NCBI GenBank assembly: GCA_029259185.1 | Contig: JAPDJF010000006.1 | Location: 1-47,940, forward strand | DNA from: Hadesarchaea archaeon | GTDB taxonomy: Archaea; Hadarchaeota; Hadarchaeia; Hadarchaeales; WYZ-LMO6 | Direction: 5' to 3' | DNA: 47,940 nucleotides | Part shown: positions 41,451-47,940 of the stretch, piece by piece | How positions within the stretch are numbered: the stretch's first letter is position 1 | Layout of the letters: every line of letters begins with the position of its first letter | The notes under the pieces: model-generated | The model's database searches: none | Told to the model about the DNA's origin: nothing | The model's input: only the letters and a program-made list of their open reading frames with translations | Translations under genes and position numbers: made by a program

Positions 41451-41990
41451 CTTTCACTCGACGGTCACCGGTTCTGTTGCGCGATCTGGAGCCGCGCAAC
41501 TGGTGGGGTCACAATCATTTCCCACCACCCGGCCGAACCTCAGCCCCCCATCTTCGGGTTCGGCGACGTTCACCCAAGCCATGCGGTTCCTGTCCCCTTC
41601 AATCCCGCAACTCGGGCACATCAGGTGGCGCAAATCTGGGCCGACCTTCAGCCTTTCCCCACATCTCGGACACACGCTTGACGTGCTCCTCGGCGGAACA
41701 TTGGAGAGAGGAGCGGAGTTCCAGTTCGACTTGTATTGGACTGTCTGCCGGATCCTTCGACCATCCGGCTCCAGTCCGTGCCTTTCTCTTATCCCTCCAG
41801 CCGTTGATGCTCCCCAGCGAGGTGATCCCGCGCCGACCGCTGTGCCAAAGAAGTCCTGAACCGCCCTGGGTACCGCTCGATGAGCTCTCCCTCGGCGTTG
41901 GGCTCGTAACCGATGCGGATGCCCTTCAGCGCGACCGCCCTCCAATCAGCATAGGTATGATGCCAACCAAAACGAAGACCGATCACGCAA
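41451..41990 (-). mobile_element. tnpB: Degenerate IS200/IS605/IS607 TnpB remnant
   Basis: Minus-strand YKS...V.PRSTSSVCPRCG...LMCPSCG...DRNRMAWVNV (Zn ribbon plus degenerate RuvC-III); upstream part frameshifted; left boundary approximate. Confidence 0.75.
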
Positions 41991-46568: not shown

Positions 46569-46656
46569 GCCCCGGTAGCTCAGTCTCGGTGAGAGCGCGC
46601 GCTTGGTATCCCTGCCGAAGAGCGCGAGGTCGCGGGTTCAATCCCCGCCCGGGGCT
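46569..46656 (+). tRNA. tRNA-Thr(GGT) with a 12-nt intron at 37/38 (46609-46620)
   Basis: Acceptor GCCCCGG/CCGGGGC, D-stem GCTC/GAGC, anticodon stem CGCGC/GCGCG with GGT at 46605-46607, T arm GCGGG-TTCAATC-CCCGC; bulge-helix-bulge with TTGG/CCGA; CCA not encoded. Confidence 0.93.
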
Positions 46657-46696: not shown

Positions 46697-47065
46697 TTAC
46701 TTGCTCTTCGCGATTTCGTAGATCGCTTTCAGCGCTATCACGAGCACACCAGCACCGATGAGCACAACGATGTTCGTAGCCAGTCGTGTTAGCTCCGTAG
46801 GAATCGTCACCGTAGCCTCAGCACTGATCATCTGTTGCATTGCCATCGCCGTTAAGATGAAGGCGATCGAGCTGATCATGAATTTATTGACTTCTGGGGC
46901 TGTCACGTTGAAAAGACCGACGATTACTCCTAGAACCGCCAACACGATGTAGAACTCTCCCGAAGGGGTGTAAGCCGCTGCAGCCACAACTGAGATCAGC
47001 AGACCGATGTAGAAGACCAGAGGGCCTACTAGACTCTCGATTCTTATTACAGACTTCTTTTTCAT
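46697..47065 (-). CDS. Small 4-TM hypothetical membrane protein
   Basis: Four hydrophobic segments, LGVIVGLFNVT..EV.KF, IALKAIY; start ATG 47065 or 47083. Confidence 0.7.
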   Translation of the reverse strand: MKKKSVIRIESLVGPLVFYIGLLISVVAAAAYTPSGEFYIVLAVLGVIVGLFNVTAPEVNKFMISSIAFILTAMAMQQMISAEATVTIPTELTRLATNIVVLIGAGVLVIALKAIYEIAKSK

Positions 47066-47128
47066 GTTTGGCCCATTTCTCATTTAAACACGGGTTTTAA
47101 AACATTTCCTATGTAAATTAAATTCAAT

Positions 47129-47171
47129 GCCGAGCGCAGTCCCTTTCCGAAAGGGAGGGGTTAGCGAGGCG
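47129..47171 (+). repeat. IS200/IS605-like left-end hairpin
   Basis: GCC-GAG-CGC-AGT-CCCTTTCC-GAAA-GGGAGGGG-TTA-GCG-A-GGC; shares AGGGAGGGGT with the hairpin at 24409-24442. Confidence 0.5.
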
Positions 47172-47200
47172 GTATATTTACGGAGAAACAACAAACCAAT

Positions 47201-47496
47201 GGCCGGTTAGGTTCCGAAGGAGATCAACATGCCCCTCTCGCACGGGGCGTGGGCTTCGGAGAACGCCACCCAGCAGGCGTCAAACGCGCTTGGCGGTCAA
47301 CTCTCCGAAATAGAAGTGCATCGGGCGAAAGCCGCAAAGCTGGTCGGAACCTGACTGAGGCGGCTCGGTATATCCGAACCGCCGGGGGCGCTACCGTGAG
47401 CACCCACGGTGGAGTGACCGCGCCCGAAAGTCCTGCCGGCAATGGCGTGCAAAGGACAACCGGAAGCCCCCTGCAAAAGCGAGGGGAGGAGGTGAG
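47201..47496 (+). ncRNA. Putative highly structured non-coding RNA ending in an IS605/TnpB right-end-like hairpin
   Basis: Nested helices: 47205-47217/47344-47356, 47228-47235/47244-47251, 47255-47262/47302-47309, GGC-GAAA-GCC, 47359-47383 hairpin, 47386-47391/47420-47425, 47430-47434/47453-47457; TATA-like TATATTTA at 47173-47180; ends GGAAGCCCCC...GGGGAGGAGGTGAG. Confidence 0.6.
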
Positions 47497-47535
47497 TAAC
47501 AGTTGCCGATAACTTCACAAATACTAATACAATTG

Positions 47536-47940
47536 ATGGCACTAATGGAAATGAAGGAGGCCGCCGAGTACACGGGATTACACCCCCATACGCTACGGAA
47601 GTACATCGATCAAGGAGTGATAAGGGGAGTGAGGATTGGAAAACATCGTGGAGAAGGCGGAGCTGGACAGATTGATGGGTATTATAGAAAGAAGACCCGC
47701 CGGAGTGGCCATTTACGCGAGGGTCTCGGCAAAGAAACAGCAGGATGCCGGGAACCTGAACAGGCAGAGAGAAAGGCTGCTGAGCTACTGCGTAACAAAC
47801 AAGTTGAAAGTTATCGATGTAATCGAAGATGTGGCTTCTGGAGTGAACGAGAACAGGAAGGGATTGAAGAAGCTGTTCGAACTCGCCAGAAGGGGCGAGA
47901 TAGATGCAGTTGTGGTGGAGTACAAAGATCGACTGGCGAG
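47536..47940 (+). mobile_element. tnpA: IS607-family serine recombinase TnpA, frameshifted near 47647 and truncated by the window end
   Basis: HTH part MKEAAEYTGLHPHTLRKY...GKHR, then in the +1 frame VEKAELDRL...AIYARVS...NLNRQ...DVASGVNENRKGLKKL...VVVEYKDRLA. Confidence 0.85.

What the first reader, a model, noticed from the sequence alone, without database searches (positions are those of the whole stretch)
47129..47520. Orphan ~300-nt multi-domain structured RNA inside IS200/IS605-like ends: possible stand-alone guide RNA or new RNA class
Seen: a left-end-like hairpin (47129-47171), a TATA-like box ~25 nt before 47201, then dense nested helices with several G-U pairs. A 13-bp helix (GGUUAGGUUCCGA/UCGGAACCUGACU) closes a ~150-nt branched 5' domain. 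Further hairpins follow, with an alternative outer pairing CCGGUU/AACCGG (47203-47208/47458-47463) and possible pseudoknots (GCAGG 47273-47277 with CCUGC 47432-47436; loop GCAC with GUGC). It ends in GGAAGCCCCC..GGGGAGGAGGTGAG, resembling archaeal TnpB right ends, but no TnpB coding motifs lie between the ends. Inference: a non-autonomous element expressing an omega-like RNA in trans with an extra 5' domain (the following TAACAGTTGCCGATAACTTC would be its guide), or a ribozyme-like leader of the adjacent IS607.
Basis: partly seen in the sequence, partly recalled or inferred. Interest (0 to 1): 0.8.

Follow-up and report, generated by a model that had tools for sequence, protein, structure and literature searches.

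The report
Gene-less transposon carrying long guide-like RNA
This is one of four copies of a small gene-less mobile element of an archaeon that seems to express a 300-base folded RNA ending in a known transposon guide-RNA module; the kind is known, but the RNA's large front part has no relative anywhere.

Summary
The sequence features are real, but the RNA is not an orphan. Window 47124-47493 is one of four 94-98% identical copies of a ~370-bp, gene-less IS200/IS605-type element (a PATE) in this 1.27-Mb vent archaeon.

- **Left end:** it has the same layout as the left ends of full-length IS1341-type tnpB elements in the genome, including a TATA box that places a start near 47201.
- **3' third of the RNA (47384-47493):** it resembles Rfam HgcC below threshold. 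My model of it matches other tnpB-less elements and, marginally, the 3' ends of full-length tnpB genes in related genomes. It is an omega-RNA-type scaffold.
- **5' two-thirds (47201-47383):** a very stable four-way-junction fold with no detectable relative in the genome, the phylum, metagenome or genome scans, or protein databases. It shows no decayed tnpB.
it is the left end of an IS607 copy inserted into the last 3-9 bases of the right end. The other three copies do not abut IS607, so the "IS607 leader" idea fails.

PATEs that encode omega RNAs for TnpB acting in trans are already described. The new points are the large family-specific 5' domain and a second, unrelated 5'-extended family in three other genera. 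Expression could not be tested.

The parts
47119..47123 (+). Pentanucleotide directly 5' of the shared element. It reads TAAAT here and TGAAC in the other three copies. I read it as the target/TAM position.
   Evidence: Flank alignment. Contig loose ends begin at 47124. Family B elements follow TTTAAC. That this is the target or TAM is inferred by analogy with IS200/IS605; no empty site was seen.
47124..47172 (+). Left end (LE) with a subterminal hairpin; core stem 47141-47148/47153-47160.
   Evidence: Shared by all 4 copies. It has the same layout as the left ends of full-length IS1341-type elements in the genome: T(T/G)AAC, TC.., hairpin AGTCCC..CCG.AAGGGAGG, then a TATA box. BLAST hits to this part alone occur in relatives G005, G011 and G035. 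The fold energy alone is not significant.
47173..47180 (+). TATA-box-like TATATTTA. It would place an archaeal transcription start near 47201.
   Evidence: Sequence. A TATA-like box sits at the same position in the left ends of the full-length elements, where it precedes a small ORF and tnpB. Promoter activity is inferred, not shown.
47201..47383 (+). 5' domain of the putative RNA. P1 (47204-47217/47344-47357) closes a four-way junction of P2 (47228-47235/47244-47251), P3 (47255-47262/47302-47309, with an inner arm) and P4 (47311-47326/47331-47342). A separate hairpin follows at 47359-47368/47374-47383.
   Evidence: MFE equals the consensus fold; z -4.49. Only the 4 own copies match covariance model R1 in 65 genomes of the order and 62 of the phylum. 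nhmmer, pattern scans, plasmid and phage BLAST and protein searches found no other relative.
47384..47493 (+). 3' domain: a three-hairpin, omega-RNA-scaffold-like module of HgcC type. Hairpins at 47384-47425, 47430-47457 and 47468-47486, then GGAGGAGGT.
   Evidence: Rfam HgcC RF00062 scores 25.3 bits here and 29.4 bits in the C19 copy, against a gathering score of 50. Model R2 built from it matches in 15 of 65 genomes, including tnpB-less elements and the exact 3' ends of full-length tnpB genes.
47468..47486 (+). Right-end (RE) subterminal hairpin CCCCCTGC-AAAA-GCGAGGGG.
   Evidence: It is shared with family B elements and is close to the right end of IS1341-type tnpB elements, GGAAGCCCCCTGCGAGAGCTGGGGGTAGTTCAC. 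The complete right end ends in GGTCAC in the C19, C2 and C1 copies. Here the final CAC is missing.
47488..47940 (+). IS607-family copy. Its left end starts GGAGGTGAGTAACAG and overlaps the last 6 nt of the family A right end. The tnpA gene has a MerR-type HTH (47530-47637) and a resolvase domain (47636-47938) in different frames. The contig ends inside it.
   Evidence: The left end recurs at 8 other places. Pfam MerR 29.5 bits and Resolvase 66.3 bits. The frameshift shows by comparison with the C26 copy.

Best explanation
Window 47124-47493 is a copy of a gene-less, non-autonomous IS200/IS605-family element (a PATE). I call it family A.

**Shown**
- It is repeated four times.
- Its left end is built like the left ends of the genome's IS1341-type tnpB elements. 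Each has a T(T/G)AAC site, a subterminal hairpin and a TATA box.
- Its right end and last ~110 nt are of the same type as the 3' ends of tnpB genes and of HgcC RNAs.
- It has no coding capacity that any search recognises.

**Inferred**
- A Y1 TnpA made elsewhere moves it as single-stranded DNA, using the two hairpins.
- The left-end promoter starts an RNA near 47201. That RNA runs through a 183-nt four-way-junction domain and the 110-nt omega-RNA scaffold into the 3' flank, which would serve as the guide.
- The RNA is loaded onto an IS1341-type TnpB made in trans, for example the ISDra2-like gene on contig C34. The complex would cut empty T(T/G)AAC sites, so that repair copies the element back.
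- The 5' domain is most likely an element-specific extension of the guide RNA that adds stability or TnpB loading. It is not a separate machine.

**This copy**
- An IS607 has landed in the last 3-9 nt of the right end. Its read-through 'guide' is therefore IS607 sequence, and this copy is probably disabled for homing.

**My odds**
- PATE identity: about 0.9.
- Transcribed omega-type RNA: about 0.6.
- Still working with a TnpB: about 0.4.
For: - **Copies:** four copies at 94-98% identity with unrelated flanks.
- **Left end:** it is homologous in layout to the left ends of full-length elements that carry a small ORF plus tnpB, and to a tnpA-bearing element on C9.
- **Right end:** it ends GGTCAC in 3 of 4 copies. 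The terminal hairpin is shared with family B, with relatives, and with tnpB right ends.
- **HgcC:** it is the only Rfam family with an E-value below 0.01. It scores 25-29 bits and aligns end to end.
- **Model R2 of the 3' domain:** it finds matches in 15 of 65 genomes. Three matches end exactly at the right-end boundary of 388-389-aa and fragmentary tnpB genes (L097, L090, L086; E 0.005-0.08 per genome).
- **Pairing across matches:** on the 42 matches, 94.4% of cells pair and 27 of 30 pairs change on both sides. 0 of 500 shuffles reach this. The alignment was fitted to the model, so it leans that way.
- **Flanks:** the 3' flank differs between copies, as a guide would.
- **Candidate trans factors:** a TnpB on C34 matches ISDra2 TnpB with E 3.5e-38. 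Y1 TnpA remnants are present.
- **Variation among copies:** all 6 transitions seen at predicted paired sites, in the copies and in other runs, keep pairing on the + strand through G-U. None would on the - strand.
- **Precedent:** PATEs 'often encode omega RNAs' acted on in trans (passage). A PATE-derived ncRNA and the HgcC link are described in PMC4615843 (passages). The archaeal SisTnpB1 has TAM TTTAA, close to TTTAAC here (passages).
Against: - **The HgcC score is half the gathering score.**
- **The R2 matches to tnpB ends are marginal.** R2 was built from two near-identical sequences.
- **A sequence-only profile of six tnpB 3' ends recognises little of family A.** It finds only the terminal hairpin.
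- **The 5' domain cannot be tied to guide function.** It has no homologue and no covariation (0 of 86 pairs with double changes among 4 copies).
- **Strand and variation evidence is weak.** The minus strand folds nearly as well. The six compatible transitions could reflect C-to-T bias on one strand.
- **The Y1 tnpA on C9 looks frameshifted**.
- **The candidate TnpB is doubtful.** It lies at a contig edge and lacks the zinc-finger half of PF07282.
- **Most copies are damaged or variant.** The C1 copy lacks the last two hairpins, the C2 copy has a variant right end, and the C8 copy is cut by IS607. The family may be decaying.
Confidence: 0.6

Rival explanations
1. It is a decaying relic. The four copies are recent, inert leftovers of an IS605-type element. 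The central 183 nt is filler, and its stable fold is a by-product of high G+C. No RNA made from it does anything.
For: - The 5' domain is confined to one species-level population.
- Both strands fold almost equally well.
- Three of 4 copies are damaged or variant at the right end.
- The Y1 tnpA looks frameshifted, and most of the 23 tnpB matches in the genome are fragments.
- PATE cores are known to be heterogeneous (passages of PMC3119063).
Against: - z -4.49 against dinucleotide shuffles already allows for composition.
- The promoter is kept at the right distance in all 4 copies.
- Substitutions at paired sites are all pair-preserving on the + strand.
- A second 5'-extended family, E, keeps its fold across three genera, with compensatory changes in 13 of 75 pairs. 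Long 5' parts can therefore be under selection.
Confidence: 0.25
2. The 183-nt 5' domain is a functional RNA module of a new kind that rides the PATE as cargo. It could be a sponge, a regulator or a protein-binding domain, and it would work independently of guide function.
For: - It forms a self-contained four-way junction closed by a 14-bp helix, with a GNRA-type GAAA loop.
- No Rfam family matches.
- It shows no relation to tnpB coding sequence.
- It is separable from the 3' module: a relative of the 3' module stands alone in G045 without any 5' domain.
Against: - It has no homologues, so there is no evidence of conservation beyond recent copies.
- No partner or target was found; nhmmer on both strands shows no extended complementarity elsewhere in the genome.
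Confidence: 0.1
3. The region encodes a small protein. Either the 41-codon ORF 47229-47354, preceded by AAGGAG 6 nt upstream, is translated, or the frame open from 47201 to 47512 is.
For: - A Shine-Dalgarno-like GGAG sits 6 nt before the ATG at 47229.
- One frame is open across the whole RNA.
- Gene callers predicted read-through ORFs in three copies.
Against: - The ATG is ACG in 2 of 4 copies.
- No Pfam family matches in 3 frames.
- An exhaustive HMMER search of 1.84 billion representatives found only the element's own read-through ORFs and one spurious tandem-repeat protein.
- The open frame runs on into unrelated flanks in each copy.
Confidence: 0.03
4. It is a leader or ribozyme that belongs to the adjacent IS607.
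For: It lies directly upstream of the IS607 tnpA in this window.
Against: - The other three copies are not next to IS607.
- The other eight IS607 left ends are not preceded by this element.
- No ribozyme or intron family matched.
Confidence: 0.01

Closest known systems
PATEs (palindrome-associated transposable elements) of IS200/IS605 type, including PATEs that encode omega RNAs
   Same: [quoted passage not shown]
- No terminal inverted repeats.
- Near-terminal palindromes like those of IS605-type transposons in the same genome.
- Multi-copy and homogeneous.
- Hit by another mobile element near a terminal palindrome.
- Expected to depend on TnpA and TnpB made in trans.
- Sources: passages of PMC3119063 and of 10.1101/2023.03.14.532601.
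   Different: - The core is not a simple fusion of left and right ends.
- It holds a 183-nt, strongly folded domain with no relation to the parent tnpB element.
- It appears to be driven by the retained left-end promoter.
HgcC RNA family (Rfam RF00062) and the sotRNA/PATE-derived ncRNA VNG_R0052 of Halobacterium
   Same: - The 3' 110 nt align end to end with the HgcC model, including the terminal hairpin and GAGGAGGUCA.
- HgcC was linked to IS1341 right ends, and a PATE-derived RNA was shown to be expressed (passages of PMC4615843).
   Different: - The score is 25-29 bits against a gathering score of 50, so it is not a member by Rfam's rule.
- HgcC is about 130 nt, whereas this RNA would be about 300 nt.
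- That HgcC was first found as G+C-rich islands in Methanocaldococcus is taken from the passage.
Omega RNA (reRNA) of ISDra2-type TnpB
   Same: - It sits at the right end, its scaffold ends at the transposon boundary, and the guide would come from the 3' flank.
- The genome's IS1341-type TnpB is an ISDra2 TnpB relative (8EXA/8H1J, E 3.5e-38).
- The conserved 5' site T(T/G)AAC resembles known TAMs, such as TTTAA for archaeal SisTnpB1.
   Different: - There is no tnpB in cis.
- The scaffold is preceded by an unrelated 183-nt domain.
- Binding and cleavage are untested.
- That the ISDra2 scaffold is roughly 130 nt is recalled, not taken from a call.
IStrons (IS605-family elements with a 5' group I intron and a 3' omega RNA)
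   Same: One element combines a structured RNA at the 5' side with an omega RNA at the 3' side. I saw only the search listing and the start of the abstract of 10.1101/2023.11.20.567912.
   Different: - No group I intron or other ribozyme family matched at E up to 10.
- At 183 nt, the domain is much smaller than a group I intron.
- There is no tnpB.

Membership tests
IS200/IS605-type PATE | [quoted passage not shown] | tested here: met
   The element is 370 bp. blastx against the genome's TnpB set gives a best E of 0.30. Pfam finds 0 families in 3 frames. The protein databases hold only its own read-through ORFs.
IS200/IS605-type PATE | Near-terminal palindromes related to those of IS605-type transposons, with no terminal inverted repeats. 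| tested here: met
   The left-end and right-end hairpins resemble those of full-length tnpB and tnpA elements of the same genome. The two ends are not inverted repeats of each other.
IS200/IS605-type PATE | Several copies at different sites, each inserted 3' of a short conserved oligonucleotide, with no target duplication. | tested here: met
   There are 4 copies. TGAAC precedes 3 of them and TAAAT precedes this one. No duplication flanks any copy. No empty site was available to fix the boundaries.
IS200/IS605-type PATE | A Y1 TnpA is available in trans. | tested here: inconclusive
   PF01797 gives 4 matches, 2 of them over the cut-off. The best one, on C9, looks frameshifted. The genome is 95% complete and in 54 contigs.
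TnpB omega RNA | Located at the right end, with the scaffold ending at the element boundary and a variable flank as guide. | tested here: met
   In this copy the flank is IS607.
TnpB omega RNA | Sequence and structure homologous to the 3' end of tnpB genes. | tested here: inconclusive
   R2 matches three tnpB 3' ends end to end, but only at E 0.005-0.08 per genome. A sequence profile of six tnpB 3' ends finds only the terminal hairpin.
TnpB omega RNA | Transcribed, bound by TnpB, and able to guide DNA cleavage. | not testable with these tools
   No RNA holder was listed among 9 runs. This needs bench work.
Rfam HgcC (RF00062) | Score at or above the gathering score of 50 bits. | tested here: not met
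   25.3 bits here and 29.4 bits in the C19 copy. 0 of 6 matches in the genome are over the cut-off.
IStron / group I intron or other self-cleaving ribozyme | A match to an intron or ribozyme covariance model. | tested here: not met
   cmscan of 47050-47600 at E up to 10 gives only HgcC and one chance hit.
SRP RNA / RNase P RNA | A match to the archaeal models, as a single essential gene. | tested here: not met
   Both lie elsewhere: C40:335-665 (162.9 bits) and C9:21703-21997 (223.2 bits).

The most novel reading that the evidence does not exclude
Gene-less IS605-type elements of this archaeal phylum have evolved enlarged guide RNAs. An HgcC-type scaffold is fused to a large, family-specific folded 5' domain. 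Family A has one here. The unrelated family E has another in three other genera, with compensatory changes. On this reading the 5' domains are functional modules. They might out-compete the autonomous element's own RNA for TnpB, protect the guide at high temperature, or act as TnpB decoys. PATEs would then be RNA-level parasites or regulators of TnpB rather than mere deletion products.
Probability: 0.15. Interest if true: 0.6.

Novelty: new variant of a known kind. Interest (0 to 1): 0.33.

Why it matters
If the 5' domain is part of a working guide RNA, tnpB-less elements are not just truncated copies. They would be able to elaborate their RNA while borrowing TnpB and TnpA from other elements. 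That bears on how guide RNAs and nucleases separated on the road to CRISPR-Cas12. It also offers thermostable, naturally extended omega-RNA scaffolds.

If it is filler, the finding is an ordinary PATE in a transposon-ridden genome. Either way the locus shows IS607 inserting into the GGAGG-rich right end of an IS605-type element.

Tried and rejected
- **Known RNA families.** Rfam at gathering thresholds on the whole window gave only a tRNA. At E up to 10 on 47050-47600 it gave only sub-threshold HgcC and a chance hit.
- **SRP or RNase P RNA.** Rejected, because both are elsewhere in the genome.
- **Decayed tnpB.**
  - blastx against 21 TnpB frames of the genome gave a best E of 0.30, and Pfam gave nothing.
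  - The word-indexed protein search, run with 'longer' and 'near', gave only P0001-P0003, which are read-through ORFs of the C2, C19 and C1 copies.
  - The exhaustive HMMER search added only P0004, a 7-fold tandem-repeat protein. I take that match to be spurious.
  - By eye I thought part of family E resembled the FDRD-coding part of tnpB. A profile of six tnpB 3' ends did not support this.
- **Homologues of the 5' domain.**
  - BLAST in 40 relatives matched only the two ends.
  - Model R1 found nothing foreign in 65 genomes. The 'class' search returned the same 65 genomes, so one search was a wasted duplicate. The phylum search covered 62 genomes.
  - R1 with filters off on five loci gave nothing, and nhmmer --max in the genome gave nothing.
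  - The genome contigs pattern scan gave 2 chance hits in methanotrophs.
  - The metagenome-contig scan gave one contig of the same population and one chance hit.
  - Plasmids and phages gave no match.
- **Expression.** No RNA holder was listed among the 9 runs. The four runs I laid were DNA contigs. They showed only variants of the known copies plus two new transitions.
- **Synteny of family E.** tblastx showed that the flanks are not homologous.
- **ARAGORN.** It found no tRNA beside the C2 copy. Rfam found one with an intron.
- **Literature.** I ran 3 literature searches. None turned up a 5'-extended PATE RNA, but they were not exhaustive. Fig. S8 and File S4 of PMC4615843 and the Extended Data of the Meers preprint may show PATE or HgcC alignments that bear on novelty.

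Full report
**What is in the sequence.** The window is a whole contig (C8) of a 1.27-Mb, 54-contig archaeal genome. DNA runs that hold the stretch come from hydrothermal-vent and marine metagenomes.
- a hairpin-forming stretch at 47127-47175;
- TATATTTA at 47173-47180;
- a 14-bp helix 47204-47217/47344-47357 with two G-U pairs, closing a branched domain;
- further hairpins, and the end GGAAGCCCCCTGCAAAAGCGAGGGGAGGAGGT.

The 301-nt stretch folds better than shuffles (z -3.12). The 183-nt 5' domain does so more strongly (z -4.49, 0 of 200 shuffles). The opposite strand is nearly as good. G+C is 63% against about 50% around it.

**It is a repeat, not an orphan.** The genome holds four copies:
- C8 47124-47493;
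- C19, 98% identical;
- C2, 94% identical;
- C1, 97% identical.

The flanks are unrelated. The shared sequence begins at TCAATGC. It is preceded by TGAAC in three copies and TAAAT here. It ends in GGTCAC in the three other copies. The C2 copy has a variant terminal hairpin and stops 8 nt before an intron-bearing tRNA. The C1 copy has lost the last two hairpins.

In the window the final CAC is replaced by sequence that recurs at eight other places, always starting GGAGGTGAGTAACAG. This is the left end of an IS607-family element. Its tnpA has a MerR-type HTH and a resolvase domain, here in two frames. So the IS607 sits inside the last 3-9 nt of the right end. The element is not an IS607 leader, because the other copies lack IS607 and the other IS607 copies lack the element.

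**What kind of element.**
- The left end has the same layout as the left ends of the genome's full-length IS1341-type elements and of a tnpA-bearing element: T(T/G)AAC, TC, a hairpin AGTCCC..CCG.AAGGGAGG, then a TATA-like box. In the full-length elements that box precedes a small ORF and tnpB.
- The right-end hairpin is shared with a second gene-less family. This family B is about 310 nt, occurs at six loci here, and is also present in relatives G011 and G035. It still carries recognisable tnpB-tail sequence.
- The right end is also close to that of IS1341-type tnpB genes, GGAAGCCCCCTGCGAGAGCTGGGGGTAGTTCAC.
- The genome has 23 matches to the TnpB TNB domain, 19 of them over the cut-off and most of them fragments.
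- One ISDra2-like TnpB of 373 aa lies at a contig edge. It matches 8EXA/8H1J at E 3.5e-38 but lacks the zinc-finger half.
- Remnants of a Y1 TnpA are present.

This is the anatomy of a PATE, as defined in Haloquadratum (passages of PMC3119063).

**The 3' third is an omega-RNA-type scaffold.**
- HgcC is the only Rfam family with a meaningful E-value. It aligns end to end at 47384-47506, with 25.3 bits here and 29.4 bits in the C19 copy, against a gathering score of 50. HgcC has been linked to IS1341 right ends, and a PATE-derived RNA is expressed in Halobacterium (passages of PMC4615843).
- A covariance model of 47384-47496 (R2) finds matches in 15 of 65 genomes of the order. Of the 14 loci I inspected, 9 show no tnpB-like frame upstream, and one (L102) also ends in the tnpB-type right end.
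- Three matches end exactly at the right-end boundary of tnpB genes: 389 aa, 388 aa and one fragment. They score only E 0.005-0.08 per genome.
- The best foreign match, in G045 at 39.9 bits, is a solo ~125-nt module after TTTTAAC with no 5' domain.
- On the 42 aligned matches the three-hairpin structure is 94.4% paired, and 27 of 30 pairs change on both sides. The alignment was fitted to the model, so this leans towards the structure.
- The flank after GGTCAC differs at every site.

**The 5' two-thirds stand alone.**
- Model R1 of 47201-47383 matches only the four own copies, in 65 genomes of the order (which equals the class) and 62 of the phylum.
- BLAST in 40 relatives, nhmmer in the genome, and plasmid and phage BLAST gave nothing.
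- Two collection scans gave chance hits plus one contig of the same population.
- Laid contigs of four runs show the same variants as the genome's copies plus two new transitions.
- The frame that is open across the RNA has no relative in 5.8 billion clustered or 1.84 billion representative proteins, apart from its own read-through ORFs and one spurious repeat protein.
- There is no blastx or Pfam signal of tnpB.

Covariation therefore cannot be tested: 0 of 86 pairs have double changes among the copies. What variation exists is mildly informative:
- All six transitions at predicted paired sites keep pairing on the + strand through G-U, and none would on the - strand. One transversion breaks a pair. 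A strand-biased C-to-T process would look similar.
- The 47434 T>C change in the C2 copy breaks the proposed GCAGG/CCUGC pseudoknot and strengthens the local hairpin.
- The ATG of the 41-codon ORF is ACG in two copies.

**A parallel case.** Three other genera each hold one copy of a ~270-nt gene-less element, family E, with the same HgcC-like end. L087 scores 29.8 bits to HgcC.
- Its 5' half is unrelated to family A's and to tnpB 3' ends.
- The flanks are not homologous.
- 13 of 75 predicted pairs show compensatory change among three sequences.

Long, family-specific 5' parts in front of the HgcC-type module are therefore recurrent in this phylum, and at least one is conserved as a fold.

**Mechanism and verdict.**
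- Most likely this is a PATE mobilised by a Y1 TnpA in trans.
- Its retained left-end promoter would make a ~300-nt RNA consisting of a 5' domain, an omega scaffold and a flank-derived guide, for use by an IS1341-type TnpB in trans. This mechanism is established for IS605-family elements, and it is expected for PATEs (passage of 10.1101/2023.03.14.532601).
- Transcription, TnpB binding and any role of the 5' domain are inferred. No RNA run was available.
- This particular copy is cut by IS607 and probably cannot home.
- The kind is known. The variant feature is the large orphan 5' domain. Interest is moderate to low unless that domain proves functional.

Noticed in passing
L087:1501-1767 (-), L088:1501-1771 (-), L078:1250-1516 (+): 'Family E' is a ~270-nt gene-less element with the same HgcC-like right end, found in three other genera with one copy per assembly. 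The flanks are not homologous. 13 of 75 predicted pairs show compensatory change. Its 5' half is unrelated to family A and to tnpB 3' ends.
   Followed up: partly
window 47488-47940; also G000 C10:1-454, C5:11794-12451, C26:14851-15197, C15:1835-3898: All IS607-family copies start GGAGGTGAGTAACAG. The one in the window sits inside the GGAGG-rich right end of the PATE. tnpA is frameshifted between the HTH and the resolvase domain in the C8, C10 and C5 copies, but reads through in C26. Two truncated copies face each other on C15.
   Followed up: partly
G000 C34:2-1120 (L033): The IS1341-type TnpB (373 aa) is clearly related to ISDra2 TnpB, but it lacks the zinc-finger half of the TNB domain (TSQNIPEGFDRDY). 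Relatives in G030 and G034 share this.
   Followed up: partly
G000 C2:71770-72090, C2:62686-62918, C9:6578-6873, C29:2547-2821, C6:51534-51663, C6:45666-45811: Family B is a second gene-less PATE of about 310 nt after TTTAAC. It still carries tnpB-tail-derived sequence and the same right end as family A. It is also common in relatives G011 and G035.
   Followed up: partly
G000 C2:17494-17900 (L003): The C2 copy of family A directly follows a family-B-like remnant (..GGGATCGAGTCCGGTGGATGAAC). It ends 8 nt before an intron-bearing tRNA gene that ARAGORN missed and Rfam found.
   Followed up: partly
L074 (metagenome contig, 5788 nt): This contig joins the C8 left flank and the element to the C1 right flank. 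It is either an assembly chimera across the repeat or a real recombination between copies.
   Followed up: no
window 46569-46656: A tRNA gene with a 14-nt insertion in the anticodon loop, which looks like an archaeal intron. It lies about 470 nt upstream of the element.
   Followed up: no
window 41568-41759 (-): A further TnpB TNB-domain match (50.7 bits) within a 163-aa open frame inside the window. It is probably another tnpB fragment.
   Followed up: no
G000 C9:42044-42478 (-): A tnpA-bearing IS605-type element with a left end like those of families B and D. The Y1 tnpA and the following tnpB both look frameshifted or truncated.
   Followed up: partly
G000 C11:25303-26956: A resolvase fragment lies directly upstream of a 483-aa TnpB-like frame. 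This may be a second, different IS607-type unit. No HgcC-like right end follows it.
   Followed up: no
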